Source of the DNA: Candidatus Termititenax sp.
GTDB taxonomy: Bacteria > Margulisbacteria > Riflemargulisbacteria > GWF2-35-9 > DYQY01
Length of the DNA: 64,000 nt
NCBI GenBank assembly: GCA_020719045.1
Contig: DYQY01000001.1
Span: 58,516-122,515 of the forward strand
Direction of reading: 5' to 3'
Shown: one piece after another, positions 24,407 to 43,833 of the stretch
Position numbering within the stretch: position 1 is the first letter of the stretch
Layout of the letters: every line of letters begins with the position of its first letter
The notes under the pieces: model-generated
Told to the model about the DNA's origin: nothing
Database searches by the model: none
What the model saw: only the letters and a program-made list of their open reading frames with translations
Translations under genes and position numbers: made by a program

Positions 24407-24408
24407 AA

Positions 24409-24666: not shown

Positions 24667-24667
24667 A

Positions 24668-25224: not shown

Positions 25225-28200
25225 ATGTTTCAAAGGTATATTGCCTATCTATTATTAATCTTTTCTTGTTTGCTTTTTGGAGTATCAGATTCGTTTGTTG
25301 TCAGCCAAAATGATGACTTGAGTTCTGATGAACTACAAAATATTATATCGCTTATCCCAACCGAAAATCTGCAAGAAATATCCTTTCTCATTCCTTCAGA
25401 AAACCCTAATACAGACACTACAAACTTAAATATCTCAACCGAAAGTATCCCAACGCAAAACATTGAACCTCTTCTGCCACCACTACCACCGCCCAAAGTA
25501 ATCTTTACCAATGAACTATTCAAACCAAAAGAAATACAAAAAACTAATAGATTACTAGTCATTACTGATAATCGCTCATACCTTGAATCCAAAAAGAAAA
25601 AAGAGCCTAGTCCGGATGTAGACGATGAATGGAAAGACTTTAAATGGGAACAATGGGAAGAAGCTAAAGACCCGCTTGCTGCCTTCAAGTCTCCACCATA
25701 TGTTGACGGTTTCGGAGAAATAAAAGTTTACTCCTTACAAGTAAATGCAGACAACAAGAATAGAGCCTACGCGCTTAATGACGAAGTCTATAAGTTCTTA
25801 ACTTCAAAAGTTAAGGAGGTAGCATTCCAAATAGATTACAGATTTAATTTACTTATTCAAGCAAAAATAAGCGAAGAAGCAGAAGTCTACTATAATGTCT
25901 CGCAAGAACCAGACCTGCCTCAAAAAACAGATGTTTCCCTTAAAGTAAGACAAACCTGGGTAAGATTTGGATACACAGAAAAAAGATTTGTTGTCGGCTC
26001 TTTTACCGATGTAAGCAAAAAGATTGACGGTGTATCTGTTGAAGGTACAGAAGGTCCATTTACCTATAACTTTGCGTTTGGTTCTGAAAAAAGCAAGTCA
26101 GATGTTTTTACCAGACAAGGTAATGGTGGGGATGAGTACGAACTAAGAAATAAACCTGTATTAGAAAAATCTGTTCAGGTTTGGGTGAACGATAGACTTC
26201 AAACAATTAACAAAGACTATACTGTAAACTATTTTGAAGGAAAAGTAATTTTTGCTACCATTAAAACCTCTGCTGAAACCTTAAAATTCTCTTACCAATA
26301 CACCAACCCAATAGAAGAATTCATTCCCATTGCAAGTAACGTAAATTTAATAGGTATTAATGCAAAATATGATAACAAAAACAAACAAACTATAATAAAA
26401 AAACTAGGCTCATATACTGAAACTTTCGCTTCTTTACCAGCTGAAAACGAGATAAGGGTTTTTAGCTACCCTATAGAGCTTAACTCAGAAAAAATATATG
26501 CCAACAATACTGAGCTCCAAAAGAATGTTGATTATTATATCCAATATTCGTCCGGAGAAATTTTCTTCCATAACAAAAATATATCGAATATTAAAATCAG
26601 TTATATGTCCCCTGAAACAAAACTCCATCAAGAAAAACTACAAGGTAACGGAGAAAAAATAGCCTTCAACATAAAAAACACCCCTATCTTAAACAACAGT
26701 GAAGTTGTATCTCTTCAAGGAAATATCTTAGAAAAAAACAAAGATTACAAAATAGAAAACGAAAAAGGAATGCTTATTTTAAAGTACCCAATTGCCTCAA
26801 ACGAAACAGTTTCAATATCGTATCGCCAACTGCAATTCGAAACAAAAACCTTTAGCAGCGCAACTGACGCTGACTTTAACATAAACTTTGCCTACATAAG
26901 ACAATTTGCAAAGTCTCAAGACGATATTAACTCCAAGCTCACATCTGAAAGGATTACATCATCAACCAACTTTTCTTCAACTGTAACAATTAATCTCAAA
27001 AACTGGCCTATTGTAAATTCTTCAGTGTCTTTATTACTAAACAATTCTACAATTACAGCTGATTCGATTAGCCTTGACTACTACACTGGATTTATGACGA
27101 TAAATGCTTCTGCCCTAAACACTGCAACTGGCACCCTACAAATAAATTATTCATACTATAAAGAGTTTGGCCCACAACAATGGAACTTCTCTGGTTCTAG
27201 CAGGGAACTAGAAAACTATATTTTCTATAATAATAAAATTGGATATAGAATCAAATCAAACCTGCCTCACCCTATGAAATATGACCCAAACAGCCAATAT
27301 ATTAAAGTTGAACATAAAAACAACGCAAACATTTATAAAACGCTTAAAAGAGGCTATGACTATGATATTCTTTTTAATGTAGATTCCGTAAAAGAAGGCC
27401 AAGTCTACTTAATACTCTATCATAGCCACGGAGTTACGGTAGACTCTAGTTCAGAGCTTGTAAGTTATGGGCTACCTTCATCACTAGGCAATGATGACCT
27501 ATTTAAAATAACTTACTACTATACTAATTCTAATATTCCTGACTCAGGTGAAATAATCAACGAACAGTTTGCTGTTGTTTACAATCAACAATTTGATCAA
27601 AACTTTGGATATTCTGTTGAAGTTGCTCGTTCCCATAAAGAATACTCGAAATCCACCAAAACAACCACAGATGTTCTCGCTGGAACAGGTGAATTCAACA
27701 AAGCATACACTCTCTCAGCAACCAATATTGTTGAAAACTCAGAAGTAGTCTACTTAAATGAAAATGTGGCTATTAGAGATATTAACTACTATATAAACTA
27801 TAACACTGGTCAAATAACCTTTATCAATCTTAATCCAAGTGCAACAGACTATATTAGAATTGAATTTAGCTATTTTACCAAGAGTTCTGGCGGACAAGTC
27901 ACCAAATATGATGAAGCTGGTTCTGCTATTGGAATTAAGGCAAATTTGAAAAATACATTCCACGACACAAGTACCCAATTATTTTTTGTTGATGACAACT
28001 TCTCTCCAGTAGGAACATCACAGTACAGAAAAGGCTCTAATGTATTTATATTAGGCTCAAAAATGAGACCTTCAAAAGAATTAAACATTAATACAGAGCT
28101 CTTTACCAACAATCAAAAATCAACTTTTCAATCAATCTCCGCTGGAAGATATTTAGGCTATAGTGAAAATAAATATAAACTCGGTGCATCCTACGCACCA

Positions 28201-30303
28201 CTTGATATTTTTAACGTTCAAGGCGAAGCTGATATTCAAAACTATGCAACAGAAAAAAATCCAGATAACGGACTAAAACCCATTGATAAATCGCTTAACG
28301 CCTATAAATTCTCAGTAGCCTCAGGTCCATCAGTTTTCAAAACCTCCTTTTTCCTGAATAAATACAATAACATTGATAAATCAAACAGAACCACAAACCT
28401 TGAAACCATTGGGCAATCTCTTGAGCTAAATAATGACCTTATTCTTTTTGAAAACAACTTAAGGCTGATTTCTGCATTTAAAGAAACAACTGAATTCCAA
28501 ACATCAAGCAACCAAAACACAAACAACTTAAATAACAGAAAATATGGCTTCGATCTTGGAGTAAGACCAATATCTTTCTTAAGACTAAACGGTAATTACT
28601 CGCAAGAAAACTTGGAAAAAAATAATTATGTAAGCACAACACTTAGTGCGACTAAAGAAGAAGCTCGAAATTATGGAACCAATCTTTCACTTACCCCACC
28701 CATAGAATTTCCCCTCTTTCAAAAACCAAACTATGGATTTGCATTACTAAATTCTGAAAAAAGGTCATTACTGTCAACCTATAAACCAGAAGCAAATAAA
28801 TCTATTGGAAACAACTTATCTTTTGGAATCTTTGACCTAAGCAACATTGCACTAAGAAACTCACTTGCTAACTCACTTCAAAGTGACGAAAAAATACTCA
28901 AAGACTCTTATCTGGAAGAATACTCCATAAGTGGGTTTACGGTATTAGGAAACATTTTACCAATCACCCTTAAACCTTTTTCAAGAAGATTTACTCGTTC
29001 TTCAGCATCAGATGGCATAGGCAACTCCTCTACCATAAGTAGCTCTGGAAGAAATTGGGGTGACTCAACCAAATATGGAATTAGCTGGTCTCCATTAAAA
29101 GAGTACAATGGCGGATTTGATTATACTCTCAACGAAAACTATTACTTATCTACTGAAAATAAAGCTATTGAAGTAATCCACTCATATCAAACCAAACCTA
29201 ACAGTTCCTTAGTATTATTTAATAATATTAACGCAGCCGACCTTCTTAAAACAAATCACACCTATCAGAACAATGAAGATAAAGAACAAAAATTTACCTA
29301 CTATAAAGCAACCTCTGATTTATCTATCACGAACATCACCACCTACAACAAAACAAGTCACCTATATTCTAATATCTTTAAAAACGTTTTACTTGAGAAG
29401 ATTCATCCTGTCTACTTTAACAACAGCTACGTTGATGATGACTTCATAGATACTGCAAAGGGTATAAAACTTAGAAAACAGGAAGATTACGAACTATATT
29501 CTGATTTTAAAGTTTTAAGCTCTCTCACACTTAAACCAAAAATTAATTATAGCCAAATAGATCAACATACTAGCATCTCAGATAACTATTCACTTGAGTC
29601 CATTAAATCATTGTATGATCAAAGAATTTATAATAACAAACTTATTTCTTCCTTAGGAGCAGCATATCCTGTTATTGAAAAAACCAATGTTCTTGCTAAT
29701 ATTGGCTACGACAATATTAAAGAAAATGTATATACAAAAAACTCGGGTGGCATATCTGAAAACCTAAAAGAGTTTGATGTTTACAGCCTCGGGGTAGGTG
29801 TAGATACAACCATTATTGATGGATTATTTTTAAAAGGAACTTATACTCTAAAAAACAGTTTAGACAAAAATGCTACTCAAAAAGCATTTAATGGTAGCCA
29901 AACAATCAGGATTGAAGGAACCTATAAACCTTCTACTCATTTTAATGTTTCTAACGTAGAAACTATTGGTGATATGTTAGTTGTTGTCTTAAACAAATCA
30001 ACAGTCGGGTTCTTTTTAGAACACAATAAAGGAACTGGTATCAATTCCTATACTGTTGAAGAAACCGAAAACTTAGTAGGAAAAACTGTTGAAACAAAAA
30101 TTGAAGAAATCGACAACCTAAGAATTAAAGGCTCCTTTGTTTCACAAGTTGAAGTTCCGCTAAAAGAGCAAAGTAGCGGGATGATAGAAAAGTTTGTCTT
30201 TTCATCTGACGCACATATTGTTATAAAAAATGACTACGCATCCACCTCTGGAATAAACTACTCAGTGCTTGGACTTATCTTTAGCGGAAAACTTATCTTC
30301 TAA
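25225..30303 (+). CDS. 1692-aa exported, predicted outer-membrane beta-barrel protein with SprA-like repeated beta-domains
   Basis: Signal peptide, five copies of P(I/V)xxxSxxV..DYxIxYxxGxIxF, aromatic/Asn-rich beta-strand pattern, C-terminal Phe (GKLIF). Confidence 0.6.
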   Translation: MFQRYIAYLLLIFSCLLFGVSDSFVVSQNDDLSSDELQNIISLIPTENLQEISFLIPSENPNTDTTNLNISTESIPTQNIEPLLPPLPPPKVIFTNELFKPKEIQKTNRLLVITDNRSYLESKKKKEPSPDVDDEWKDFKWEQWEEAKDPLAAFKSPPYVDGFGEIKVYSLQVNADNKNRAYALNDEVYKFLTSKVKEVAFQIDYRFNLLIQAKISEEAEVYYNVSQEPDLPQKTDVSLKVRQTWVRFGYTEKRFVVGSFTDVSKKIDGVSVEGTEGPFTYNFAFGSEKSKSDVFTRQGNGGDEYELRNKPVLEKSVQVWVNDRLQTINKDYTVNYFEGKVIFATIKTSAETLKFSYQYTNPIEEFIPIASNVNLIGINAKYDNKNKQTIIKKLGSYTETFASLPAENEIRVFSYPIELNSEKIYANNTELQKNVDYYIQYSSGEIFFHNKNISNIKISYMSPETKLHQEKLQGNGEKIAFNIKNTPILNNSEVVSLQGNILEKNKDYKIENEKGMLILKYPIASNETVSISYRQLQFETKTFSSATDADFNINFAYIRQFAKSQDDINSKLTSERITSSTNFSSTVTINLKNWPIVNSSVSLLLNNSTITADSISLDYYTGFMTINASALNTATGTLQINYSYYKEFGPQQWNFSGSSRELENYIFYNNKIGYRIKSNLPHPMKYDPNSQYIKVEHKNNANIYKTLKRGYDYDILFNVDSVKEGQVYLILYHSHGVTVDSSSELVSYGLPSSLGNDDLFKITYYYTNSNIPDSGEIINEQFAVVYNQQFDQNFGYSVEVARSHKEYSKSTKTTTDVLAGTGEFNKAYTLSATNIVENSEVVYLNENVAIRDINYYINYNTGQITFINLNPSATDYIRIEFSYFTKSSGGQVTKYDEAGSAIGIKANLKNTFHDTSTQLFFVDDNFSPVGTSQYRKGSNVFILGSKMRPSKELNINTELFTNNQKSTFQSISAGRYLGYSENKYKLGASYAPLDIFNVQGEADIQNYATEKNPDNGLKPIDKSLNAYKFSVASGPSVFKTSFFLNKYNNIDKSNRTTNLETIGQSLELNNDLILFENNLRLISAFKETTEFQTSSNQNTNNLNNRKYGFDLGVRPISFLRLNGNYSQENLEKNNYVSTTLSATKEEARNYGTNLSLTPPIEFPLFQKPNYGFALLNSEKRSLLSTYKPEANKSIGNNLSFGIFDLSNIALRNSLANSLQSDEKILKDSYLEEYSISGFTVLGNILPITLKPFSRRFTRSSASDGIGNSSTISSSGRNWGDSTKYGISWSPLKEYNGGFDYTLNENYYLSTENKAIEVIHSYQTKPNSSLVLFNNINAADLLKTNHTYQNNEDKEQKFTYYKATSDLSITNITTYNKTSHLYSNIFKNVLLEKIHPVYFNNSYVDDDFIDTAKGIKLRKQEDYELYSDFKVLSSLTLKPKINYSQIDQHTSISDNYSLESIKSLYDQRIYNNKLISSLGAAYPVIEKTNVLANIGYDNIKENVYTKNSGGISENLKEFDVYSLGVGVDTTIIDGLFLKGTYTLKNSLDKNATQKAFNGSQTIRIEGTYKPSTHFNVSNVETIGDMLVVVLNKSTVGFFLEHNKGTGINSYTVEETENLVGKTVETKIEEIDNLRIKGSFVSQVEVPLKEQSSGMIEKFVFSSDAHIVIKNDYASTSGINYSVLGLIFSGKLIF
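26149..27830 (+). repeat. Five protein-level repeats of about 35 aa within the 1692-aa protein
   Basis: NKPVLEKSVQVW..DYTVNYFEGKVIF; SYPIELNSEKIY..DYYIQYSSGEIFF; NTPILNNSEVV..DYKIENEKGMLIL; NWPIVNSSVS..LDYYTGFMTI; ATNIVENSEVV..NYYINYNTGQITF. Confidence 0.75.
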
Positions 30304-31421
30304 ATAGTTTCGCTAATCTGACTAAGCGGAATAATCATTACATAACCCAAAACAATTATTACTAGTGCTATTACAGCTATCGAAAAACTACTTATCAGAT
30401 TAGCCAATAATCCTTGTGTCTCTCTTTGTTTCTCCTCAGCTTCAATAATAAAGTTTTTATACAGACTCATCTTTCTCTCATTATCAGTTGCTAATACTGA
30501 TAGCACTCTTTGCTTATTTGGTATTACCTTAATCTCAAGTGCCTTTTCTAAAGATAGTCCCATTGTTAGTCTAGAAAAAATTGTTGATAAATAATAGACA
30601 TTTATCCCCTTCTTCTCCTGTTTTATGTATTCACTTATAAGCTCCTCCAGAGGCACACCAGTTTCTATAGCCATTAACGCAATCTGCCAAAAGTATGTCT
30701 GGAATTTTGCTTTATATAAATAATTTATTAACCTCGTTTCTGCCTTTACCTTCACCGGAACTAACTTGTAGGCAAAATAAACCATCAAGACCAATATTGC
30801 TAAAAAGGAAACTACTATCCACAAGTACTCTCTACTGATTATCCTTAACAAGAACGGTACTGCTTGTCCACTATCTTGAAAAAACAGCATAAAATTAGGA
30901 AGAATATTATATGAAACAAAAACTATCATTCCAAAACATGCCATCAATAAAACTGTCGGATAAGTTAGTCTGTTAACCAAATCTTTTGTATTTTTTACTC
31001 TTGCTCTTAGTATAACCACCATCTTTTCAAATAACTTCTGATTAATTGCTAATCTGTTCACTGTTAAAGAAGAAACTATCTCCTCACAAAACAAGTTTGA
31101 TTCTCTTAAAATCGTAGTAAAATCTTGTCCTCTTCTAAGTTCTGCCAAAACAAATTTACAAACATCCTTTATCTCTCTACTAGCAAACTTTTGATACTGC
31201 AAAAGTAGACTATAAATATTTTGTCCGTCTGAATAATAGAGTGCCAAAAACTCAAAAATCTCTAGCTGCTTAATAAGAGACAACTTACTTTTTAACTTTA
31301 TAAAGAAAACTTTCTTTATTATAAAACGCTCAATCTGATTCTGCGTAACCAGACTAAATCGCAATCCATTACGAGATAAATACAAAGCTCTAAATAGCAC
31401 CAAAATAAAACCTTTCTGCAT
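30300..31421 (-). CDS. Type II secretion F / PilC / ComGB family inner-membrane platform protein (start uncertain)
   Basis: Two cytoplasmic repeats (ELRRGQDFT; LTMGLSLEKAL), LTYP before TM1, three TM helices, MIIPL at the C-terminus. Confidence 0.7.
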   Translation of the reverse strand: MQKGFILVLFRALYLSRNGLRFSLVTQNQIERFIIKKVFFIKLKSKLSLIKQLEIFEFLALYYSDGQNIYSLLLQYQKFASREIKDVCKFVLAELRRGQDFTTILRESNLFCEEIVSSLTVNRLAINQKLFEKMVVILRARVKNTKDLVNRLTYPTVLLMACFGMIVFVSYNILPNFMLFFQDSGQAVPFLLRIISREYLWIVVSFLAILVLMVYFAYKLVPVKVKAETRLINYLYKAKFQTYFWQIALMAIETGVPLEELISEYIKQEKKGINVYYLSTIFSRLTMGLSLEKALEIKVIPNKQRVLSVLATDNERKMSLYKNFIIEAEEKQRETQGLLANLISSFSIAVIALVIIVLGYVMIIPLSQISETI

Positions 31422-32154: not shown

Positions 32155-33689
32155 TGCTTTCTTGGAAAAATCGGCTCTGGTTGATTTAGCATTCTGTCTT
32201 TAGTAAAGAATCCCCAAGTAAATGGATTTTGAAGCCTCTCTTCTTCTGATATATTTAATTGTTTGTAAAATAACGCTGTAACTGTAGGCATAAAAGGACT
32301 CAACCATGCTGTCACAATTCTTAGCGTTTCAATTAAATGAACCATCACTGTTGCTAGTTTCTCCATATTACCCTCTTTTTGCAATGTCCAAGGAGCCATC
32401 TCCTCAACAAACTTGTTAGCCCTTCTTATGACTGTAAAAATCTCCTCAAGCGCTATAGATAACTTAAAGGCATCGATCTTTGCAGGAATGCTGGATTCTA
32501 AGGCAATTACCATTTTCTTTAAACCCAACTCTTCCTCTGAAAATAAAGCATCGTTCGCTGATGGAACCTTAAGATCAAAGTACTTCTTTGTCATATTTAA
32601 AGTTCTATTTAGTAAGTTTCCATAATCATTAGCAAGGTCGCTATTGAATCTTTGCTTCATTGTTTCGTCTGTATAAGAACCATCTAACCCAAAAACCATT
32701 TCTCTTGATATATAGTATCTAAAAGGGTCTACACCGTATTCGTCAATAATAGCAAAAGGGTCTAATACATTACCCTTGGACTTTGACATCTTTTCTCCGC
32801 CTTGATAAATAAAGCCATGACCAAATACATGTTCTGGTACCTCTACTCCCATAGCCATTAACATTGCAGGCCATATTACCGCATGAAACTTGAGAATATC
32901 CTTACCTATTAAATGTACACTTGCTGGCCAATATCTTTCAAAAAAAGCATTATCTTTTTTATACTTAATGCCTGTTAAATAATTTAATAACGCATCAAAC
33001 CAAACATAAACGTAGTGTTTTTTTTCAGTATTCTCTAACTGTGGGAACTCTATTCCCCAGCTTATTGTTGTCCGACTAATACAAAGGTCTGTTAAGCCAC
33101 TTTCAACAAAACTAATAACTTCATTTTTTCTGCTTTCTGGTAATACAAAGTCTGGAACTTTCTTAATGTGGTCCAAAATCTTTTGTTGAAACTCAGATAA
33201 TCTAAAGAAATATGCTTCTTCTTGAAGCATTATTACTTCTCTTCCACAATCAGGGCATTTGCCATCCACTAATTGAGTTTCTGTAAAATATGCTTCACAA
33301 GGTCTACAATAAAGACCTTCATAGGAACCTAAATATATATAACCATTATCATATACTTGCTTTATTGTATCCTTAACAATTTCTTGATGCTCAATGTCTG
33401 TTGTTCTTATGAAACGATCATTAGAGATGTTTAGCTTTACCCAGAGTTCTTTAAACCTTAAGACAACACTATCAACTAATTCTTTTGGTGTTATTCCTTT
33501 TGCTTCAGCTGCTTTTTCTATTTTCTGACCATGCTCGTCTGTACCTGTTAGGAAAAAAACATCTTTACCTCTAAGCCTGTAGAACCTTGCTAAAATATCT
33601 GCAATTATTGTTGTGTAACAGTGGCCAATGTGGGGAATATCGTTAACATAATAAATAGGGGTCGTGATATAAACTGAATCCTTTACCAC
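32145..33689 (-). CDS. metG: Methionyl-tRNA synthetase (short form)
   Basis: YITTPIYYVN, HIGH, GTDEHG and KMSKS. Confidence 0.97.
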   Translation of the reverse strand: MVKDSVYITTPIYYVNDIPHIGHCYTTIIADILARFYRLRGKDVFFLTGTDEHGQKIEKAAEAKGITPKELVDSVVLRFKELWVKLNISNDRFIRTTDIEHQEIVKDTIKQVYDNGYIYLGSYEGLYCRPCEAYFTETQLVDGKCPDCGREVIMLQEEAYFFRLSEFQQKILDHIKKVPDFVLPESRKNEVISFVESGLTDLCISRTTISWGIEFPQLENTEKKHYVYVWFDALLNYLTGIKYKKDNAFFERYWPASVHLIGKDILKFHAVIWPAMLMAMGVEVPEHVFGHGFIYQGGEKMSKSKGNVLDPFAIIDEYGVDPFRYYISREMVFGLDGSYTDETMKQRFNSDLANDYGNLLNRTLNMTKKYFDLKVPSANDALFSEEELGLKKMVIALESSIPAKIDAFKLSIALEEIFTVIRRANKFVEEMAPWTLQKEGNMEKLATVMVHLIETLRIVTAWLSPFMPTVTALFYKQLNISEEERLQNPFTWGFFTKDRMLNQPEPIFPRKQCI

Positions 33690-36600
33690 TAATGGACAAC
33701 TCCTATCATTCTTACAATTTTAGTTGGCTTACCACTTGAGGCAAATGGTGCCGCCTCTATAACTGCAAAGTATCCACCTTTTGAAACAAATTGTCCAGAC
33801 TCATTCCTTCCGTCCCAATCAACTGAACAAAAGAATCCAGAGCCACTTGTTGCACCCTCTTTAGTAATTGCAGTGCTATCAAATCTTCTTACAAAATGCC
33901 CTAATGAATCATATATTGTTATACTTGCATCAATGTTTTGATTTAAAGAGAAAACTATTTTTGTAGTTTGAAATGCTGAATAAAAAGGATTTGGATAATT
34001 AGATACATTAAAAATAACTTCACTAGTATTAGTAGTCATAATCCTGTCACCTGAATCAAGATACTCGCTTGATGCTTTCGCTCCATTAACCGCCTTTACT
34101 CTATAGGCATACGGTGTATCATACAACACGCTCACATTGCTCCACTCACGATCATTTGCGTTTTTCGTTGCCACCTTCTGCCACACTAGTGACTGCCCTG
34201 CAAGCATCTCTACAATATAATAATCAATGACAGACTCTGCCTCAATAAACGGAGACCAAATCAAATCATGTCTATTTTCATCCCATTTAGCAATAACATG
34301 TAAACGATTATCATTTCCTACCCATGGAGGAGTAACGTCAGTATGAAATGCAAAGTCTCCTGTTATTGACCAATACTCTGTACCAGTTAATGTAGACTTA
34401 ACCTTTGCAGAAATATTGTAAGTTGTGTTATCAGCTAAAAACTTTAATGAATCAGTTATTGTAATACTTACTGTTGCTAACTGAATATCTTTACTGTTGG
34501 TTACATTATTTACTGAAACATACCCACTATAAATATCAGAACCACCAGATGTTGAACCTATTTTAACCAAGATAGTATCAACACCATTATTCTGAACATT
34601 AACTGATGTAGAATATCTAAAACTTATATTCCTGTGACTATTGATGTATGCATCCCCTGAAATAATAGGTCTAGTTGGTTGATAGTAACTCACAACCTGA
34701 ATCTTATTTGTTGTTACCTCTATCTCATTTAAAATTGTAGCATAAGCTTTCTCACCAGGAATTTGAAAACTAATGTTTCCTGATGCTGTTTCAGTGTTCA
34801 CAAACTTAATTTTATATGAAGCTTCTTTTCCAACATTACTTCCAATATATGGCCGAATAACTAATGCAAAATAATTTTCTGTTGCTAATATTCTTGGATT
34901 AGTTTGTGGATTTGAGCTATCTGCAAGCGTTATTCTTATTCTTTCTCCTGAAGGGGCTCTATCAATCTGAGTAACAGATACTTCCTCTGTATATGCGTAA
35001 TCATCATTCGCTTGAGAACCAGAATATCTATAAAGCTTAACCTCTACGTCACTATTAGCATTTGAATTTAATCTTAAGGTTCCTTGGTCTCTATATAAAT
35101 CTAAATAGTATAGTTTTGGATATTCTGCTGACCCTTTATAATCTAAGGATAATTTAAATTTAAGTAAATTTATGCTCTGATCTTGATAAACGTAACTCTC
35201 CGGATTTTTAAAGGTCTCAATCGAAACTTTTGAAACATAATAATCAGAATCAAAAGTAATTGTTCTAACTGGAAATTCTCCAGTATTTACCATCTTATCT
35301 CCACTCCTAAACTGAAAAGAGTCAGCGCTGACAATCTCAAATGAAAATTTCTTACCAGCACCTAATGTCTTATCTGTTTCAACCACAACATAAAACTCAG
35401 GATCTGTTGACCCAACATTAACTGGATAAGGAAATACAACATTAATTGTTGTTTGACTAATATTTAAAAACTTATCTGTTCCTGAACTCACAAGTAAATC
35501 ATCCACATCATACAGTTGATTTCCATTATCTTTATAAATAGCCACTCTTGTAATCTTAGTTGGATTAATATCTATTGAATAATTAAACTTCAATGTCAAA
35601 CCTGTCCAAAGAGCACCTTCAGCAGCTACTCCACCTGAACCAGCAGTTTCAGCAAGCCATGAACGCAACGCAAATTTCTTAGCAACAAAACTAACACCAG
35701 AATGAATTTCTCTGGTAACAATTAAAGACTCATCCTGTTCCTTTGGAATATAGGAAATATTTAACCTGGTTTTAGAAATATTAAAACTTGCAACAATCCC
35801 ATCCAGTGGTTGATTAGCCGGAGGAATAACAGACTCATAGTATAAAACATTAAACGCATCAACTGTCGCAAATCCAAAACCAATATACTCATTTTTTATA
35901 TCAGCACCAGAATACACATCTACAACCAAAAAGACCGTTGTGGTTGTCTGTGTGTCTACTATTTTCTCAGTAAACGATATATTCATAGTGTCTCCTACTC
36001 CTTGATAAGGCTTAGAAGCCATTAATAAATCTGTACTTTCACTAAATAATCCATCCTTGTCTTGATCATAGTATATATGAAACTTTTCAATTTTAGTTAC
36101 ATGCATATTATCAAGCTGTAAATTAACACCAGAAACATGAACATCTCTGCTGGATGCTTTTAGTTCAGCGTATATAACTGGTATTTTCTGCTTACCTACT
36201 TCTAAATTGTTAAAACTATATGCAGACACATGCTCACTTCTGCCTCTCGCAAAATAATCACCATAACTAAGAACCCTTAGTGGTCTTGCAAAAGGAGACC
36301 TTCCTATTAGCTGATTTCCTGCTAAATCCATAACATTAATACTAATATTCTTACCAATAGCCTGCTCTCTTGTATCAATAATACTTCTATCAACAGTTAC
36401 TCTATATAAATAATCATTACCCATTGTTCCAAGATAAGTCATATCTAGACTTCCCACGATGCTCCCATTCTCTGAAACTAACCAACAATTATGAGTTGTT
36501 GACAAATCTATTTGTTCGTTAAAAAACATTGTAACAACTATTGGATTTACTAAGTCTATATTGGTAGGTTGAATTACTGTCTCATAGGTAGGAGACTGGG

Positions 36601-39600
36601 AGTCATAAGTGATAAACCATCTAGCTGGCTCATCACATCTTGTTTGTGCATCAGCAACCCAAGCAATTATTTCTTTACGTCCTTGAGATGTGTCAGTAAG
36701 TATATGTTGTGCACTAAAACTTGCTACATATTCACCAGCAACGTCTGGCCATATATTATACTGATCCCATCTAGGGTTACCATAGTAATTATCAAATATA
36801 TAATATTTTCGATAGTCGTCACTGATAATGTTTCTACTTAATACATAGTTTATTGTTAAACTATTAGTATAATTACCATTTCCCCTATTAGAATAAACCT
36901 CAAACCTTGGAGTTGCTGGTATTGTTGAGTCAATAACAAAAGAACCACCAAGCGCTACAGATGTCGTTATATTCTTTGCTTCGTCTGTAACAATTACTTC
37001 AAAAATAGCATTATAGGTGGATTTTTCCTCTCCCAATAAATTAAACAAATTGTAAGTTGCCATCCAGTACGCTTTATATGCTGAACTATTCTCATTTGTG
37101 GCATCCCACCTATCTGAACTAATTAAAAATGGCACTAATATACTAACTGTTATAGGAGTAATAAAATCGTTTGCTGGATAAATCACAAGTCTCCAACTTG
37201 GTGTTACTGCTGCTCTTTCATAATAATTAATATCTTCTCCACTAAACGTCGTATTATGAGTAATTTCCATCTGTGCTCGATACAATATCTTTGATAGCTT
37301 CAGCCCTTCATATTGAACCTTTGTATCATCTGGTCTAATCATAACTTTTGGCTCAGACTGATCTAAAACAATACTACAAGTAACAGCCTCCATTGTATTG
37401 ATGCCTTTATCATTTATTACCCACAAATGTAACGTTCTTAAACCGTTAATAGAATATACATCTCCTTTTGGGAAAATATAGAGAATTAAATATTTTCTAG
37501 CACCATTAACAACTACATAGCTTTCAGTTGCAAGTGATTGCCAAGTTCTTCCAGCAGCTATTGCATAATTTACAGAAGAAGCATCTTCTCCCTCAAGAAT
37601 TAAATACTGATTTATACTAGTTCCAACAATAAAAGAAATACTTACAACATCAGCATTTGTTAAATCATTTCTTCCAGTTTCAATATCTTGCACATTAAAA
37701 GACTGAGGAAAAGGTACTTGCTCTGCTCCTAATTTAAAGAAATTACTATAACCATTGAACGTTGTTGCAATATTACCTGCGTCATCAACGAGTAGCACGC
37801 TGAAATGATGAACCCCATCATTCAAAACACCATTCATTGTTACAGAATACTCCCACGACCTTCCAAGCCCTCCAGTACAATTAATTGTAACAAGCTCACT
37901 TGCCCCGCCACTTATTGTATATCTCACAAACGGCGTAACAACTATTTCCTCTGAAACATCTAATGTAATATATAGAATATCCTGACTATTTATAAAAGGC
38001 ATAACATCATTACCAGACTGAGATCTCATTATTATATCTACAACTGGCCTAACTATATCAACTTTAATACCTCTTGTTGCCACGGTGCTGTTCCCAGCAT
38101 TATCCCAAACCTTAACATAACAATCAATTGTTGAATGGTTATTAGCCGAAACCAGTACCTGTGTAGCCACTAATACCATATCCAAGGTTGCGCTATACTC
38201 CGTTTGACCTGTCGATGCTTTTACTCGAACACTCTTAGATGGAAAACCACCAGCATCCACTGCAGTCCAAGTTAAAACAACATTTTCTGTGTTTAGCCAT
38301 CCACTTAACGGAAATGTTTTACTATATTCTTGGTTAAAAACTGAATAAATTGTCCCCTCAAGTTCAATCTGAGGTGATACAAATAATGAAGCCACAGGAG
38401 TTTCAACATCCACTTTTAATGGTACTGACTTAGTCGCTAAGTTACCTGCTCTATCTCTCACCTGAATATAAACATTCTGTGTTGCAAAATTATTTGGACT
38501 TACATATATTCCAGAATAACTTAATTCATATTGGAAGCTACTCCACACATCAACACCATCTGAACGAACCCTGTAAGGATTGTTGTGTAAGCTTCCTGCT
38601 CCATCATTTGTCTGATCCCAATTAAGATTAATTGTTGGGGTTGCATGCCAACCAGATTGTGGCCATATACCATCCTCCCCTGAATCAGAATCTGCTAGTA
38701 TTCTTGCTTCAAAATTAATTGCTGGAGCATCTGTATCAACATAAACATTTGTATTACTTAAAATAATATTACCAGCTCTATCAGAAATTGCTCCCACGAT
38801 ACTTCGTTGAAGTGCACCCGCATTTGCTATAAATAAAGTGGCATTTTGTGAGTTAATTGTACCGTTGGTAAAATACGTATCTGCTTCTCCCTTTAAAAAA
38901 TATCCATCAGTTCTAACATCAAATGTGTCAGCAACGGTTAATCCTGGTGCTACATAAAAAGAAAATGAAACAATATTCCTATTATACCAACCTGCATCAG
39001 GCGTCACCTGAAGACCAGCAACATAATTACATGTTATCAGCCTCAAAGTGAAAGAACCTAAAGGAGGCACCGAGTCAACGGTTACAAGCATACTCTTTGT
39101 TAATATGTTTCCTGCTCTATCTATATATCTAGTCTGGATAACATTTACTGTGTTAGAGCTAACTGGTAAATTTGTTATATATAGGTTAGATGTTGGTTCA
39201 CCCCAAGGATTATCATTTACCTTGAACTGAAACGGCCTGTTCCTTGCTGTTGGATCAGCCTGACTAAACATAATCATAAAAGTAATTTCAGGATTATCAT
39301 AATATCCCAATTCAGGATCTAATCCATCATTATTTGAGTCTGAGTCATACGACAAGTCAACCTGAAAATCATTTGGTGCAACTATATCAGAATATACGCT
39401 GTCATTAATTTCAGTAAAATTACCGGCTTTATCTACTAATAGCGCCTTAAAATTAATTGGTGTAGCATCGTTAGCGATTAAACTGACATTATTGAAACTA
39501 ATATTTTGTTCCAAAACGGATTGTATCGTTGGAACCACCGATTGGCCAATATACAACATTACCCTATGAAGTAAACCATTCTCTACCACAGAATCCCAAG

Positions 39601-41542
39601 TAATACTTAGATCTAGGGTTGCCTGATTGTACCATTTTGCTTCTGGAGTAACCCCCTCTGGTTTAGTTTCACACGCATCAAACGATATTTTAAAGTTTGT
39701 TGGCACAGGATCTTGCAAATCAACAAAAACTTGAGCAGTAACCGATGACATATTCCCTGCTTTATCTACAGCCATTAATAAAAATACATTATTAGTAATA
39801 TCAGCATCAGGAGTAACAACTACATCACTTACAATCTTTACCCAATCTGAAGTTGTAGCATTACTTGTGCCGACAAGATATCTATATTGAAAAGCCTTAT
39901 CTCTAAGTTGACCAGCATCTTCAGCATCACAACCCCATTTAACGTTTACATCGTTATACCAACCAATTTGCGGTAAAATATTTACTAGTACATTTTCTTT
40001 TCCGGTATAGTCTGGTACTAGTTGTAAACTTATGGTTGGCGCTATTGTATCAACTTTGATAGTTCCATATGATGTCTTAATATTCCCTGCTCGGTCTATT
40101 GCTCTAACCCATATACTACTTGCATTATTTCCCTTTGCATCAACTGTTACCCATGCCTGACTTGCAGACTGAGAAACCCCTAACATCACGTCGTCAGCCA
40201 CTAACGCTGACCAAGTACTCCAACCTTCACTCTTAAACTGATAAGCTAATATACCAGAACTATCAACTGGTTCAGCCCAGCTAAAACTCACTGTTTGATC
40301 GTTATACCATCCTTCCTCTGGTGCTATTTGGTCAGCTTCATTAATTAAGTCTGGCTGAACAGTAACAACAAATTCATTTGGTTCTGTAACATCAATTGTC
40401 ACTTTCACGCTCCTTGTCACAAAGTTATAGACATTATCAAAAACATGAACCACCAAATCTATATTTCCTTGAAGAGGAACATCATTATAGCTAAAAGTTA
40501 CTAAAAATGGTGCTGTTCTTGAAGTGAAAAATCCTGTTGAAGAATTAAATGGGTCAACCACCCAAATATTACTACTGATACCACTTTGCACTGTACCACT
40601 TGAGTCATTAGGGACTCCTTGTAAATTAAAACTAACTGTTATTCTGTTAAAGTAGCCTGCTAATGGCTTAATTATTGTTCCTTCACTATCAAACTCTGTT
40701 GCAGCAACATACTCAAGTGCCGCAAAAGCTACATTTGGATTAGTGTTATCTACCTCAATTAAAAAATATGACTTAGATGCTTCATCATCAAGAAGAGGTG
40801 CTCCATCAATATCTACAGATATCCACACTAAACTAGCTGCACTAGTAGGTATCGAAAAGTTAGTATAAATAAACTTGCCCCTATCACCTATACTTGCTAC
40901 TCCCTTTAAGTCACCAGAAACAAATAATTCTAAACTAAGTGGGATATGAGATGAAGGGAACACTTCTGGATCACCATAATAGTGAATTGTACCTGTTATG
41001 CTTAGCCCAGCATCAGGATAGCTACTATTATTAAGCCCTCCTTTAAATAAATGCCTATTACTTATTTTTGTACTATATTTTGAATTTGCATTAATTGTTA
41101 TTGTTTCTACTACATACTGGTCGTTAAAAACCACAGGTATTACCCATGGTAAGGGGTCTGCATCACCTACATCAACGGATATTGTATATTGAATGCCTCG
41201 CTGGAAGCTTCTATCGCTCCTTGGAACAAACCTAACGCGCCATAAATCTGTCGCATACTCCACGTTTGTTGTCAAAAACTGATTGCTTCCTTTAACGAAG
41301 CCCCACTTACCAGAAGCATTTGCTGTAATAACAACAACCTCAACACCATTATTATCTCTTATATCTACTGTAATATTATCGTCATAAGCATCTGTAACGT
41401 TTACCGAAATATACATATCTTGATATGCATGTATGTATTGGCTATCTGCTTTATCATGCGCCCAAAGCTTTAAATCATTTGACTGCAATGCGAAAGACAT
41501 TGCACTAAAAATAAAAAGAACAAACAAAATTAATTTTTTCAT
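33689..41542 (-). CDS. 2617-aa secreted Ig-like repeat surface protein with FN3-like module and C-terminal FlgD-Ig/T9SS-CTD-like domain
   Basis: Signal peptide (MSFA), many D(R/K)AGN Ig-type motifs, C-terminal NYPNPF..ITIYDSLGHFVR..WDGRNESG..GGYF. Confidence 0.85.
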   Translation of the reverse strand: MKKLILFVLFIFSAMSFALQSNDLKLWAHDKADSQYIHAYQDMYISVNVTDAYDDNITVDIRDNNGVEVVVITANASGKWGFVKGSNQFLTTNVEYATDLWRVRFVPRSDRSFQRGIQYTISVDVGDADPLPWVIPVVFNDQYVVETITINANSKYSTKISNRHLFKGGLNNSSYPDAGLSITGTIHYYGDPEVFPSSHIPLSLELFVSGDLKGVASIGDRGKFIYTNFSIPTSAASLVWISVDIDGAPLLDDEASKSYFLIEVDNTNPNVAFAALEYVAATEFDSEGTIIKPLAGYFNRITVSFNLQGVPNDSSGTVQSGISSNIWVVDPFNSSTGFFTSRTAPFLVTFSYNDVPLQGNIDLVVHVFDNVYNFVTRSVKVTIDVTEPNEFVVTVQPDLINEADQIAPEEGWYNDQTVSFSWAEPVDSSGILAYQFKSEGWSTWSALVADDVMLGVSQSASQAWVTVDAKGNNASSIWVRAIDRAGNIKTSYGTIKVDTIAPTISLQLVPDYTGKENVLVNILPQIGWYNDVNVKWGCDAEDAGQLRDKAFQYRYLVGTSNATTSDWVKIVSDVVVTPDADITNNVFLLMAVDKAGNMSSVTAQVFVDLQDPVPTNFKISFDACETKPEGVTPEAKWYNQATLDLSITWDSVVENGLLHRVMLYIGQSVVPTIQSVLEQNISFNNVSLIANDATPINFKALLVDKAGNFTEINDSVYSDIVAPNDFQVDLSYDSDSNNDGLDPELGYYDNPEITFMIMFSQADPTARNRPFQFKVNDNPWGEPTSNLYITNLPVSSNTVNVIQTRYIDRAGNILTKSMLVTVDSVPPLGSFTLRLITCNYVAGLQVTPDAGWYNRNIVSFSFYVAPGLTVADTFDVRTDGYFLKGEADTYFTNGTINSQNATLFIANAGALQRSIVGAISDRAGNIILSNTNVYVDTDAPAINFEARILADSDSGEDGIWPQSGWHATPTINLNWDQTNDGAGSLHNNPYRVRSDGVDVWSSFQYELSYSGIYVSPNNFATQNVYIQVRDRAGNLATKSVPLKVDVETPVASLFVSPQIELEGTIYSVFNQEYSKTFPLSGWLNTENVVLTWTAVDAGGFPSKSVRVKASTGQTEYSATLDMVLVATQVLVSANNHSTIDCYVKVWDNAGNSTVATRGIKVDIVRPVVDIIMRSQSGNDVMPFINSQDILYITLDVSEEIVVTPFVRYTISGGASELVTINCTGGLGRSWEYSVTMNGVLNDGVHHFSVLLVDDAGNIATTFNGYSNFFKLGAEQVPFPQSFNVQDIETGRNDLTNADVVSISFIVGTSINQYLILEGEDASSVNYAIAAGRTWQSLATESYVVVNGARKYLILYIFPKGDVYSINGLRTLHLWVINDKGINTMEAVTCSIVLDQSEPKVMIRPDDTKVQYEGLKLSKILYRAQMEITHNTTFSGEDINYYERAAVTPSWRLVIYPANDFITPITVSILVPFLISSDRWDATNENSSAYKAYWMATYNLFNLLGEEKSTYNAIFEVIVTDEAKNITTSVALGGSFVIDSTIPATPRFEVYSNRGNGNYTNSLTINYVLSRNIISDDYRKYYIFDNYYGNPRWDQYNIWPDVAGEYVASFSAQHILTDTSQGRKEIIAWVADAQTRCDEPARWFITYDSQSPTYETVIQPTNIDLVNPIVVTMFFNEQIDLSTTHNCWLVSENGSIVGSLDMTYLGTMGNDYLYRVTVDRSIIDTREQAIGKNISINVMDLAGNQLIGRSPFARPLRVLSYGDYFARGRSEHVSAYSFNNLEVGKQKIPVIYAELKASSRDVHVSGVNLQLDNMHVTKIEKFHIYYDQDKDGLFSESTDLLMASKPYQGVGDTMNISFTEKIVDTQTTTTVFLVVDVYSGADIKNEYIGFGFATVDAFNVLYYESVIPPANQPLDGIVASFNISKTRLNISYIPKEQDESLIVTREIHSGVSFVAKKFALRSWLAETAGSGGVAAEGALWTGLTLKFNYSIDINPTKITRVAIYKDNGNQLYDVDDLLVSSGTDKFLNISQTTINVVFPYPVNVGSTDPEFYVVVETDKTLGAGKKFSFEIVSADSFQFRSGDKMVNTGEFPVRTITFDSDYYVSKVSIETFKNPESYVYQDQSINLLKFKLSLDYKGSAEYPKLYYLDLYRDQGTLRLNSNANSDVEVKLYRYSGSQANDDYAYTEEVSVTQIDRAPSGERIRITLADSSNPQTNPRILATENYFALVIRPYIGSNVGKEASYKIKFVNTETASGNISFQIPGEKAYATILNEIEVTTNKIQVVSYYQPTRPIISGDAYINSHRNISFRYSTSVNVQNNGVDTILVKIGSTSGGSDIYSGYVSVNNVTNSKDIQLATVSITITDSLKFLADNTTYNISAKVKSTLTGTEYWSITGDFAFHTDVTPPWVGNDNRLHVIAKWDENRHDLIWSPFIEAESVIDYYIVEMLAGQSLVWQKVATKNANDREWSNVSVLYDTPYAYRVKAVNGAKASSEYLDSGDRIMTTNTSEVIFNVSNYPNPFYSAFQTTKIVFSLNQNIDASITIYDSLGHFVRRFDSTAITKEGATSGSGFFCSVDWDGRNESGQFVSKGGYFAVIEAAPFASSGKPTKIVRMIGVVH
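38060..40393 (-). repeat. Seven tandem Ig-like repeats of about 110 aa
   Basis: Recurring DxxxP..P(E/Q)xGW(Y/H)N..W..D(R/K)AGN units, starting DVTEP, DTIAP, DLQDP, DIVAP, DSVPP, DTDAP, DVETP. Confidence 0.75.
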
Positions 41543-42254: not shown

Positions 42255-42259
42255 TCTGT

Positions 42260-43045: not shown

Positions 43046-43067
43046 GTTGTCCCCCCTAGACTACAAA

Positions 43068-43832: not shown

Positions 43833-43833
43833 T

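What the first reader, a model, noticed from the sequence alone, without database searches (positions are those of the whole stretch)
25225..30303. Giant SprA-like outer-membrane protein, a candidate translocon for CTD-bearing cargo
Seen: signal peptide, Pro-rich linker, five PIxxxSExV..DYxIxYxxGxIxF modules, about 800 aa of beta-strand-like sequence and a terminal Phe. As I recall, T9SS SprA/Sov carries this kind of DYxIDY..G.I.I module and forms a very large barrel. No gldKLMN is in the window, but a CTD-like cargo and an orphan motor are 3.4-15 kb away. Inference: it is the pore of a T9SS-analogous system outside Bacteroidota.
Basis: inference. Interest (0 to 1): 0.65.

Follow-up and report, generated by a model that had tools for sequence, protein, structure and literature searches.

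The report
Divergent SprA-like giant barrel, Margulisbacteria
This 1,692-residue protein is a remote relative of SprA, the giant outer-membrane pore of the Bacteroidota type 9 secretion system; it lies in a phylum related to Cyanobacteria where that system is not reported, and genes for proteins carrying the matching export tag sit beside it.

Summary
ORF 25225-30303 (+) encodes 1,692 aa with a signal peptide, a Pro-rich linker, five ~65-aa "DYxIxYxxGxIxF" modules, an all-beta C-terminal half and a conserved terminal Phe.

It belongs to a family found only in Margulisiibacteriota: 46 loci among species-representative genomes, and 133 clusters at 50% identity.

No curated SprA model scores it above threshold. 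Three other results point to SprA:
- A family profile aligns end to end with an SprA profile (98.8%, E 4.5e-17; reversed control E 0.25).
- The module-free N-terminal strands match alone (95%).
- Both AlphaFold2 models have the four solved SprA entries as top PDB hits (E down to 4e-18; other barrels about 1e-4).

In two different gene arrangements the gene converges on a secreted protein ending in a T9SS type-A-like C-terminal domain (CTD). Here that is a 2,617-aa protein; in 29 Saganbacteria-type loci it is an S8 peptidase.

No gldKLMN or porV lies in about 84 kb around the gene or in any locus flank. The MotAB/FliG link holds only in close relatives.

Verdict: a new variant of the SprA translocon, probably exporting CTD proteins. 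Its partners, energy source and strand count are unknown.

The parts
25225..30303 (+). Gene for the 1,692-aa SprA-like outer-membrane protein (the stop codon overlaps by 4 nt the end of the convergent gene)
   Evidence: ORF. 12 full-length homologues of 35-71% identity. Family of 133 clusters.
25225..25296 (+). Signal peptide (about aa 1-24; cleavage site not determined)
   Evidence: Sequence MFQRYIAYLLLIFSCLLFGVSDSF. Homologues also start with a hydrophobic N-terminus.
25297..25668 (+). Poorly conserved low-complexity, Pro-rich linker (aa 25-148)
   Evidence: Sequence. Few conserved columns before W136. pLDDT 32-45 for aa 140-200.
25669..26109 (+). N-terminal beta-strand region homologous to the N-terminal region of SprA (aa 149-295)
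   Evidence: hhalign of aa 140-300 alone against the SprA profile: 95.2%, E 2.8e-8, aligned to SprA (P0016) 131-277. Eight strands in model 2. Most conserved part of the family.
26110..26310 (+). Module 1 (aa 296-362; DYTVNYFEGKVIF)
   Evidence: SprA-HMM hit at 302-388, i-E 2e-7. Module alignment.
26407..26613 (+). Module 2 (aa 395-463; DYYIQYSSGEIFF)
   Evidence: SprA-HMM hit at 392-460. Module alignment.
26632..26844 (+). Module 3 (aa 470-540; DYKIENEKGMLIL)
   Evidence: SprA-HMM hit at 479-538. Module alignment.
26962..27174 (+). Module 4 (aa 580-650; SLDYYTGFMTIN, the most degenerate copy)
   Evidence: SprA-HMM hit at 577-659, i-E 0.09. Module alignment.
27175..27549 (+). Further ~125-aa beta insert of a different type (aa 651-775)
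   Evidence: Short strands in both models. No family match.
27682..27888 (+). Module 5 (aa 820-888; NYYINYNTGQITF)
   Evidence: Pfam DUF2460 29.7 bits at 825-884. hhalign to SprA protein P0016 578-636, 94%. SprA-HMM hit at 825-883, i-E 1e-7.
27889..30300 (+). C-terminal ~800 aa made of about 34 long beta-strands, the main barrel-wall candidate
   Evidence: DSSP of models 1 and 2; pLDDT 75-93 for aa 1112-1692. Foldseek outer-membrane barrel hits with SprA first. Weak collinear profile match to the SprA C-terminus: 76%, E 2e-5.
30271..30300 (+). C-terminal beta-signal-like motif GLIFSGKLIF ending in Phe
   Evidence: Invariant F1686, G1688, L1690 and F1692. Terminal F in 78 of 87 members.
33689..41542 (-). 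Candidate cargo: 2,617-aa secreted protein with a signal peptide and a C-terminal CTD
   Evidence: Pfam FlgD_ig 30.2 bits. Conserved in the same position in 7 loci. N-terminus MKKLILFVLFIFSAMSFALQ.
33692..33997 (-). T9SS type-A-like C-terminal domain of the 2,617-aa protein (..NYPNPF..WDG..GGY..TKIVRMIGVVH)
   Evidence: TIGR04183 24.0 bits (cut-off 23) on the isolated domain, and a match to the PorU CTD, E 1.6e-8. Hit by the HMM built from the S8-peptidase CTDs, E 2.6e-11.
30300..31421 (-). Convergent ComGB/GspF-like inner-membrane protein. Conserved neighbour in close relatives; no shown role.
   Evidence: Pfam T2SSF. NCBIfam ComGB, E 3e-13. Synteny.
41556..45441 (-). MotB, MotA, a FliG-like protein (258 aa) and a membrane-anchored FliG-domain fusion (535 aa). 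Neighbours only in close relatives; the link to the barrel is not supported.

Best explanation
The gene encodes a divergent member of the SprA/Sov superfamily. It is a Sec-exported, BAM-inserted, single-chain giant outer-membrane beta-barrel.

Its N-terminal strands and the ~800-aa C-terminal strand array would form the wall. Five small beta-sandwich modules plus one other insert, all placed between N-terminal strands, would form an extracellular cap.

By analogy with SprA, it most likely serves as the outer-membrane translocon for periplasmic proteins that carry a T9SS type-A-like C-terminal domain. In this genome that is the neighbouring 2,617-aa protein. In Saganbacteria-type relatives it is the adjacent S8 peptidase.

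Shown here: the architecture, the homology and fold resemblance to SprA, the phylum-wide distribution, and the adjacency to CTD proteins.

Inferred: the barrel topology in detail, CTD recognition, and export.

Unknown: the carrier (a PorV equivalent), the CTD-removing enzyme, and the energy source.
For: Homology to SprA:
- Profile of 87 family members against a profile of 50 SprA proteins: 98.8%, E 4.5e-17, collinear over query 149-1692 and SprA 131-2014. The reversed control gives E 0.25.
- N-terminal aa 140-300 alone: 95.2%, E 2.8e-8.
- With the modules masked on both sides: 80.5%, E 1.3e-5. A separate collinear C-terminal alignment appeared when only the query modules were masked: 76%, E 2.2e-5.
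- NCBIfam TIGR04189 (Sov/SprA) hits four family members at E 1e-16 to 1e-18.

Fold:
- AF2 model of aa 140-1339: pLDDT 75.7. Its four best PDB hits are the four SprA entries, E 3.8e-18 to 1.6e-11. The best generic barrels score about 1e-4.
- AF2 model of aa 493-1692: pLDDT 70. SprA is again first, at 2.7e-8, against FecA at 4e-5.

Outer-membrane protein hallmarks:
- Signal peptide and a conserved terminal Phe motif.
- About 50 long strands in all, with above-random hydrophobic alternation: 1.52 against 0.85.

Cargo link:
- An HMM of the C-terminal 95 aa of the S8 peptidases adjacent in 29 loci hits nothing else among about 600 flank ORFs and all window ORFs, except the C-termini of the giant proteins next to the gene in this arrangement (E 2.5e-14 to 1.5e-8).
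- These CTDs reach TIGR04183 at 39.0, 27.9 and 24.0 bits (cut-off 23), and at 22.8 and 22.0 in two others. They also match the CTDs of PorU and PorZ.
- They keep the Lys near the C-terminus that is nearly invariant in type-A CTDs (PMC10994853).
Against: - The window protein has no hit to Pfam SprA_N or TIGR04189 at E <= 1. Family members stay far below the TIGR04189 cut-off: about 60 bits against 200.
- A family profile does not reach the solved F. johnsoniae SprA sequence.
- The C-terminal 800 aa alone is not significantly similar to SprA by sequence: E 0.012.
- TM-scores to SprA are low (0.23-0.27), because only open partial models could be made.
- No GldK/L/M/N, PorV, PorU or PorZ-like gene lies in about 84 kb around the gene. 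The gene families that recur in the +/-10 kb flanks of the related loci, and the flanks sampled with Pfam, are housekeeping genes.
- The gene sits in housekeeping contexts: a cell-division cluster here, the fab operon in Saganbacteria.
- The CTDs score as well or better against FlgD_ig.
- The two arrangements may descend from one ancestral adjacency, so they are not two independent observations.
Confidence: 0.6

Rival explanations
1. It is a true SprA-superfamily barrel, but it has a different, housekeeping envelope role in this phylum (for example lipid or LPS handling, outer-membrane architecture, or a general large pore) rather than CTD-dependent secretion.
For: - The gene is phylum-wide and embedded in core-gene neighbourhoods. 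Here it follows yggS-sepF-proC-yggT-DUF167 with a 33-nt gap.
- In 25-29 Saganbacteria-type loci it follows fabG-acpP-fabK-fabF on the same strand with a gap of a few nt.
- Elsewhere it lies next to queA, lepA or ftsZ.
- No T9SS partner genes were seen anywhere.
Against: - The only known function of the superfamily is CTD-protein translocation (PMC10994853).
- The only CTD-bearing ORFs in about 800 kb of flanks are the ones next to this gene.
- Pfam and NCBIfam give no OstA/LptD, POTRA or TonB-plug match.
- LptD is only a generic fold hit, at about 1e-4.
Confidence: 0.25
2. It is a giant outer-membrane barrel that is not homologous to SprA. In this reading the similarity comes only from a shared mobile ~65-aa beta-sandwich module, also found in phage tail proteins, plus generic beta-barrel statistics.
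For: - Most of the HMM-level signal is the module.
- The module matches DUF2460/TIGR02217 phage distal tail proteins and many phage tail-fibre models.
- The C-terminal barrel alone is not significant.
- Curated SprA models are failed.
Against: - The module-free N-terminal region matches the equivalent SprA region: 95%, E 2.8e-8.
- The module-masked comparison is still 80%, E 1.3e-5, while the reversed controls give E 0.2-0.25.
- The alignment is collinear from the N-terminal strands to the C-terminus.
- Foldseek separates SprA from all other barrels by 3 orders of magnitude in one model and about 14 in the other.
Confidence: 0.1
3. It is the outer-membrane part of a machine driven by the neighbouring FliG/MotAB motor.
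For: - The MotA, MotB and two FliG-domain genes share an operon with the 2,617-aa CTD protein, 11-15 kb from the barrel gene.
- The gene order barrel / GspF-like / TatD / (MetG) / giant CTD protein is kept in relatives down to 35% identity.
Against: - That operon also holds metG and tatD, so the linkage may be plain conserved gene order.
- In L001 MotAB is not between the giant protein and the FliG-like gene.
- None of the 29 Saganbacteria-type loci or the other loci has MotA, MotB or FliG within 10 kb.
- A fliS gene in another Marinamargulisbacteria MAG suggests these may be ordinary flagellar genes.
Confidence: 0.1

Closest known systems
SprA/Sov, the outer-membrane translocon of the Bacteroidota type 9 secretion system (PDB 6H3I, 6H3J, 8GL6, 8GL8; TIGR04189; Pfam PF14349)
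   Same: - Giant single-chain all-beta outer-membrane protein with a signal peptide.
- Homologous N-terminal strand region.
- The same ~65-aa 'DYxIDYxxGxIxF' module.
- Collinear profile alignment to the C-terminus.
- Best and specific fold match.
- Genomes encode proteins with type-A-like CTDs.
   Different: - 1,692 aa, against about 2,400 aa in F. johnsoniae (the TIGR04189 model is 2,319 positions long).
- Five module copies instead of one strong copy.
- Fails the curated family thresholds.
- About 12% identity in the profile alignment.
- Found in Margulisiibacteriota, not in the FCB group.
- No GldKLMN, PorV or PorU seen nearby.
- The cargo gene lies next to the translocon gene.
SprA-family proteins of non-Bacteroidota FCB-type lineages (P0016 group; relatives labelled Gemmatimonadetes, Fermentibacteria; 1,800-2,100 aa)
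   Same: - Nearest sequences by profile search.
- P0016 shares the module at 39% identity over 59 columns (hhalign; 38% by BLASTP).
- Shorter than Bacteroidota SprA.
- Often end in Phe.
   Different: They pass Pfam SprA_N (E 8.5e-21 for P0016) and carry one module. The window family does neither.
Other giant outer-membrane barrels: LptD, TonB-dependent transporters, Deinococcus SlpA, MtrB
   Same: All-beta membrane barrels. They appear as weaker Foldseek hits (E 1e-4 to 1e-3).
   Different: - No OstA, plug or SLH domains.
- E-values are 3 to 14 orders of magnitude worse than for SprA.
Phage distal tail / tail-fibre domains (Pfam DUF2460, TIGR02217, NF052337)
   Same: The repeated module alone resembles a ~55-aa stretch of these proteins.
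   Different: Only a domain-level resemblance, mostly below the family cut-offs. The rest of the protein is unrelated, and nothing phage-like lies around the gene.

Membership tests
SprA/Sov (TIGR04189, PF14349) | Scores above the curated cut-off of the family models | tested here: not met
   The window protein has no PF14349 or TIGR04189 hit at E <= 1. Four family members hit TIGR04189 at 57-63 bits against a cut-off of 200.
SprA/Sov (TIGR04189, PF14349) | Detectable homology to SprA over the length of the protein | tested here: met
   hhalign 98.8%, E 4.5e-17, collinear over 149-1692 and 131-2014. N-terminal region alone 95.2%. Modules masked 80.5%. Reversed controls E 0.2-0.25. The C-terminal half alone is not significant.
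SprA/Sov (TIGR04189, PF14349) | SprA is the best structural match | tested here: met
   The four SprA entries are ranks 1-4 for model 2 (E 3.8e-18 to 1.6e-11) and ranks 1-3 and 5 for model 1 (E 2.7e-8 to 7.9e-6). Other barrels score 4e-5 or worse. TM-scores are low (0.23-0.27) because the models are partial.
SprA/Sov (TIGR04189, PF14349) | Closed single-chain barrel of about 36 strands with an extracellular cap and a lateral opening | tested here: inconclusive
   About 50 long strands were counted from the DSSP of two overlapping models. The 1,200-aa limit prevented a full-length model, and no coordinates are returned, so closure, strand number and opening cannot be read.
SprA/Sov (TIGR04189, PF14349) | Sec signal peptide and C-terminal beta-signal of an outer-membrane protein | tested here: met
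Type 9 secretion system (as a system) | Co-occurrence with the core components GldK/L/M/N (PorK/L/M/N), PorV and PorU/PorZ | tested here: inconclusive
   None lies in about 84 kb around the gene. The gene families that recur in the +/-10 kb flanks of the related loci, and the flanks sampled with Pfam, are housekeeping genes. T9SS genes are dispersed in Bacteroidota, and whole genomes could not be searched with these tools.
Type 9 secretion system (as a system) | Substrates with a type-A CTD (TIGR04183) | tested here: met
   Isolated CTDs score 39.0, 27.9 and 24.0 bits (cut-off 23), and two score 22.8 and 22.0. They also match the PorU and PorZ CTDs. Pfam rates FlgD_ig higher than Por_Secre_tail.
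LptD / TonB-dependent transporter / usher | OstA/LptD, plug or usher domains | tested here: not met
   No such Pfam or NCBIfam hit. Only generic fold hits.
DUF2460 / TIGR02217 phage distal tail protein | Full-length match to the family model | tested here: not met
   Only model positions 117-174 of 205 match, at 29.7 bits against a cut-off of 30.4. For TIGR02217 the score is 31 bits against 137.

The most novel reading that the evidence does not exclude
Margulisiibacteriota run a minimal secretion pathway that does not use GldKLMN. In this reading a compact SprA-like barrel (1,350-1,850 aa) exports a few CTD-tagged proteins encoded next to it. In Marinamargulisbacteria-type genomes the exported 2,617-aa CTD protein would be moved or powered by the co-operonic membrane-anchored FliG fusion / FliG-like / MotAB rotary motor, giving a surface-motility or secretion machine analogous to, but built differently from, Bacteroidota gliding. 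It would also mean the SprA translocon predates, or was exchanged beyond, the FCB group.
Probability: 0.12. Interest if true: 0.9.

Novelty: new variant of a known kind. Interest (0 to 1): 0.62.

Why it matters
The papers found describe the type 9 secretion system and its SprA pore as confined to Bacteroidota or the FCB superphylum (PMC10994853, PMC7906972, PMC12398890; searches found nothing on Margulisbacteria).

A phylum-wide, much-diverged SprA relative in the sister lineage of Cyanobacteria, with CTD-tagged proteins encoded beside it and no canonical partners in sight, bears on three questions:
- Where did the translocon come from?
- What is the minimal working unit of SprA-type export?
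- Can such a pore be served by a different energy source?

It also gives a function lead for a family of about 130 sequence clusters of ~1,700-aa 'hypothetical proteins'.

Tried and rejected
- Direct sequence searches against solved structures found no SprA: single protein, 12-sequence profile, 30-sequence profile.
- Pfam and NCBIfam on the window protein gave only a sub-threshold phage-tail module hit.
- The C-terminal 800 aa alone against the SprA profile was not significant.
- A first MAFFT run timed out and was repeated with a faster setting.
- A full-length structure was impossible because of the 1,200-aa limit.
- P0013 could not be located on a contig.
- Ten kb beyond each window end held no secretion genes.
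- The Pfam-negative ORF in the window (52583-53563) and five more in those flanks were checked by eye for outer-membrane features. None looked like a PorV candidate; one truncated ORF at the far end of L052 is beta-rich but was not followed up.
- No RNA runs contain the sequence.
- Lipoprotein status was rejected: the Cys is in the hydrophobic core and there is no consistent lipobox across homologues.
- LptD, TonB-dependent transporters, ushers and SlpA were rejected as primary relatives.
- The hydrophobic-alternation test gave only modest support: 22% of strands lie above the 95th percentile of shuffles.
Full report
**1. The observation**

Read directly from the sequence:
- a Sec-type signal peptide (MFQRYIAYLLLIFSCLLFGVSDSF);
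- a poorly conserved linker with a Pro run (..IEPLLPPLPPPKVIF..) up to about aa 148;
- a terminal ..GLIFSGKLIF.

Twelve full-length homologues of 35-71% identity are conserved along the whole length. The last ten residues are almost invariant.

The five modules are real. An HMM built from bona fide SprA proteins hits the window protein five times, at 302-388, 392-460, 479-538, 577-659 and 825-883. The five segments align to a common pattern: P-I/V-x-x-x-S-E-x-V ... DYxIxYxxGxIxF ... IxIxY.

**2. What the standard searches say**

- Pfam and NCBIfam give only a sub-threshold match of module 5 to DUF2460/TIGR02217, a phage distal tail protein family.
- There is no hit to SprA_N (PF14349) or to TIGR04189.
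- Sequence and profile searches against PDB chains find nothing.

By curated criteria the protein is therefore unannotated.

**3. The family**

- A word-indexed search found 12 orthologues and two distant full-architecture relatives, P0013 and P0014, at 20-23% identity.
- A profile of the C-terminal 800 aa, run with HMMER over 1.84 billion representatives, found 133 clusters. 49 of them score below 1e-30.
- Most of these proteins are 1,600-1,850 aa, with the match ending at their C-terminus.
- 78 of the 87 members of 1,300 aa or more end in Phe.
- A scan of one genome per GTDB species returned 46 loci. All are labelled Margulisiibacteriota (Marinamargulisbacteria, Riflemargulisbacteria, Saganbacteria/WOR-1) or unclassified, apart from two MAGs labelled 'Rickettsiales'.
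- NCBI taxonomy places this phylum in the Cyanobacteriota/Melainabacteria group of the kingdom Bacillati.

**4. Relation to SprA: sequence**

A profile search with the 14-sequence alignment pulled in P0016, a 2,014-aa protein. P0016 is PF14349-positive (E 8.5e-21). Its relatives are named 'cell surface protein SprA' and include Gramella and Chitinophagaceae proteins. P0016 shares one module with the window protein (hhalign 94%).

I then built a profile of 87 family members and a profile of 50 SprA proteins, and compared them:

| Comparison | Probability | E-value | Region aligned |
|---|---|---|---|
| Full family vs SprA | 98.8% | 4.5e-17 | 1,340 columns, query 149-1692 to SprA 131-2014 |
| Reversed family alignment (control) | 0.2% | 0.25 | - |
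| N-terminal aa 140-300 alone (essentially no module) | 95.2% | 2.8e-8 | SprA 131-277 |
| Modules removed from both sides | 80.5% | 1.3e-5 | anchored on the N-terminal region |
| Second alignment, query modules masked only | 76% | 2.2e-5 | C-terminal ~490 columns to the SprA C-terminus |
| Module-masked, reversed (control) | 0.3% | 0.2 | - |
| C-terminal 800 aa alone | 3.5% | 0.012 | not significant |

Independently, the curated model TIGR04189 (T9SS outer membrane translocon Sov/SprA) hits four family members at E 1e-16 to 1e-18. The match runs through the module at model positions ~585-670.

**5. Relation to SprA: structure**

The protein exceeds the 1,200-aa limit, so two overlapping AlphaFold2 models were made with the 14-sequence alignment.

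| Model | Residues | Mean pLDDT | pTM |
|---|---|---|---|
| 1 | aa 493-1692 | 70 (75-93 for aa 1112-1692) | 0.42 |
| 2 | aa 140-1339 | 75.7 | 0.49 |

Both models are all-beta.
- The modules and the 651-775 insert are made of short strands.
- The rest consists of strands of 9-26 residues, about 50 in all.
- About eight of these lie at aa 159-298 and about 34 between aa 889 and 1692.

Against the PDB:
- Model 2 has the four SprA entries (8GL8, 8GL6, 6H3I, 6H3J) as ranks 1-4, at E 3.8e-18 to 1.6e-11. Next comes a cyanophage tail protein (1.6e-7, the module). Generic barrels such as ChuA, MtrB and LptD follow at about 1e-4.
- Model 1 also has SprA first, at 2.7e-8 to 7.9e-6, against FecA at 4e-5.

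TM-scores are low (0.23-0.27), as expected for open partial models. No coordinates are returned, so closure, strand number and pore size stay undetermined.

Family-averaged hydrophobicity alternates along the long strands more than in shuffles, 1.52 against 0.85. This is only modest support.

**6. Gene neighbourhood**

Three kinds of context exist.

(A) This window and nine close relatives (35-73% identity):
- Upstream, same strand: yggS-sepF-proC-yggT-DUF167, then the barrel gene.
- Downstream, an operon converges on it: a ComGB/GspF-like gene (the ends overlap by 4 nt), tatD, usually metG, then a 2,200-2,600-aa secreted protein.
- In the window, motB, motA, a 258-aa FliG-like gene and a 535-aa membrane-anchored FliG fusion follow.

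(B) 29 Saganbacteria-type loci:
- The fab operon (fabG-acpP-fabK-fabF among them), then a ~1,360-aa version of the barrel.
- A convergent ~735-aa S8 peptidase meets it after a few nt.

(C) A few loci lie next to queA, lepA or ftsZ.

No MotA, MotB or FliG homologue lies within 10 kb in (B) or (C).

**7. The CTD link**

The S8 peptidases end in ..ALPNPF..TF.Y.L......V.L.DL.G......G.N...WDG....G..V..GVYLYQ.....ARGKIIVLN.

An HMM of their last 95 aa was searched against about 600 flank ORFs and every window ORF of 80 aa or more. Apart from the S8 peptidases themselves, it hits only the C-termini of the class-A giant proteins, at E 2.5e-14 to 1.5e-8. The window's 2,617-aa protein is among them at aa 2516-2597.

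Scanned as isolated domains:
- TIGR04183 (T9SS type A sorting domain; cut-off 23 bits): 39.0, 27.9 and 24.0 bits, the last being the window protein. Two others score 22.8 and 22.0.
- They also match the CTDs of PorU and PorZ.
- Pfam rates FlgD_ig best, with CHU_C and Por_Secre_tail as sub-threshold seconds.

Both cargo types have signal peptides. Both keep a Lys a few residues from the C-terminus, the one nearly invariant residue of type-A CTDs (PMC10994853).

So in two different arrangements the only CTD protein in the neighbourhood is encoded convergently to the SprA-like gene. The two may descend from one ancestral adjacency. I therefore count this as one strong association, kept across the phylum, rather than two independent ones.

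**8. What is missing**

- No GldK/L/M/N, PorV, PorU or PorZ-like gene is in the window.
- None is in the 10 kb beyond either end.
- The gene families that recur in the flanks of the related loci, and the flanks sampled with Pfam, are housekeeping genes.
- Whole genomes could not be searched.
- The papers found describe the T9SS as restricted to Bacteroidota or the FCB superphylum. None mentions it in Margulisbacteria.

**9. Most likely mechanism**

Shown: the architecture, the homology, the fold resemblance and the cargo adjacency.

Inferred:
1. The protein crosses the inner membrane by Sec and is inserted by BAM through its C-terminal Phe motif.
2. Its N-terminal and C-terminal strand arrays form one very large barrel.
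3. The five modules and the extra insert sit in extracellular loops as a cap.
4. Periplasmic CTD proteins dock through their CTD inside the pore and leave the cell, as in SprA (PMC10994853).

Unknown: the carrier protein, CTD removal and the energy input. One untested possibility is that the adjacent S8 peptidase, which has a PorU-like CTD of its own, plays the PorU part.

Confidence by step:
| Step | Confidence |
|---|---|
| Outer-membrane beta-barrel | about 0.95 |
| SprA homologue | about 0.85 |
| Exporter of CTD proteins | about 0.6 |
| Coupling to the MotAB/FliG genes | about 0.1 |

**10. Verdict**

This is a new, compact, multi-module variant of the SprA translocon family, in a phylum where the system is not reported.

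- Its interpretation is partly supported. The SprA likeness and the cargo link hold.
- The motor link does not hold outside close relatives.
- Pore geometry was not obtainable.

Noticed in passing
window 41556-45441 (-), with 33689-41542 (-): A tight operon encodes, in order: a 535-aa protein with a signal/TM segment, a ~170-aa periplasmic part, a second TM helix, a Gly/Ala/Glu-rich spacer and FliG middle and C domains; a 258-aa FliG-like protein; MotA; MotB; and the 2,617-aa CTD protein. metG, tatD and a GspF-like gene follow. No other flagellar genes are in the window. In L001 the FliG-like gene (67% identical) directly follows the giant protein without MotAB.
   Followed up: partly
window 30300-30303; L001 15142-15145; L002 15136-15139: The SprA-like gene and the convergent ComGB/GspF-like gene overlap by 4 nt at their 3' ends, leaving no room for a terminator. 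The overlap is conserved in relatives at 35-57% identity.
   Followed up: partly
L039 13845-16055 (-), and 28 other loci (for example L034 13724-15688): In Saganbacteria-type genomes a ~735-aa S8 (subtilisin-type) peptidase with a T9SS type-A-like CTD is always the convergent neighbour of the SprA-like gene. The SprA-like gene itself follows the fab operon. The peptidase could be cargo, or a stand-in for the CTD-cleaving enzyme PorU.
   Followed up: partly
L017 (CAZIFG010000020.1) and L050 (NZFK01000009.1): Two MAGs labelled 'Rickettsiales' carry the Margulisiibacteriota-type gene next to queA, as does a Marinamargulisbacteria single-cell genome (L045). The labels are probably wrong.
   Followed up: no
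window aa 296-888 of the protein (26110-27888): The repeated module resembles domains of phage distal tail, tail-fibre and tailspike proteins: DUF2460/TIGR02217/NF052337; BFVD hits down to E 8e-14; PDB 9K09_U cyanophage A4 tail at 1.6e-7. The same small fold is thus used in phage tails and in the SprA cap.
   Followed up: partly
window 54664-63940 (-): Origin-type gene set dnaA-dnaN-recF-dciA-gyrB-gyrA. GC falls to 0.26-0.29 over 60-64 kb, and the cumulative GC skew declines steadily across the window.
   Followed up: no
window 22446-25191 (+): The cell-division-associated cluster yggS-(sepF)-proC-yggT-yggT-DUF167 lies directly upstream of the barrel gene, with a 33-nt gap, and contains two tandem yggT genes. 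The same order is found in relatives down to 35% identity.
   Followed up: partly
L012 15583-16035 (-): A fliS gene lies near the 29%-identical family member of another Marinamargulisbacteria MAG. Some members of the class may therefore be flagellated, which bears on whether the window's MotAB/FliG genes are really 'orphan'.
   Followed up: no
L052 1-534 (-), about 10 kb beyond the window's right end: A truncated beta-rich ORF with no Pfam hit (362-aa product in the record) might be another outer-membrane protein.
   Followed up: no
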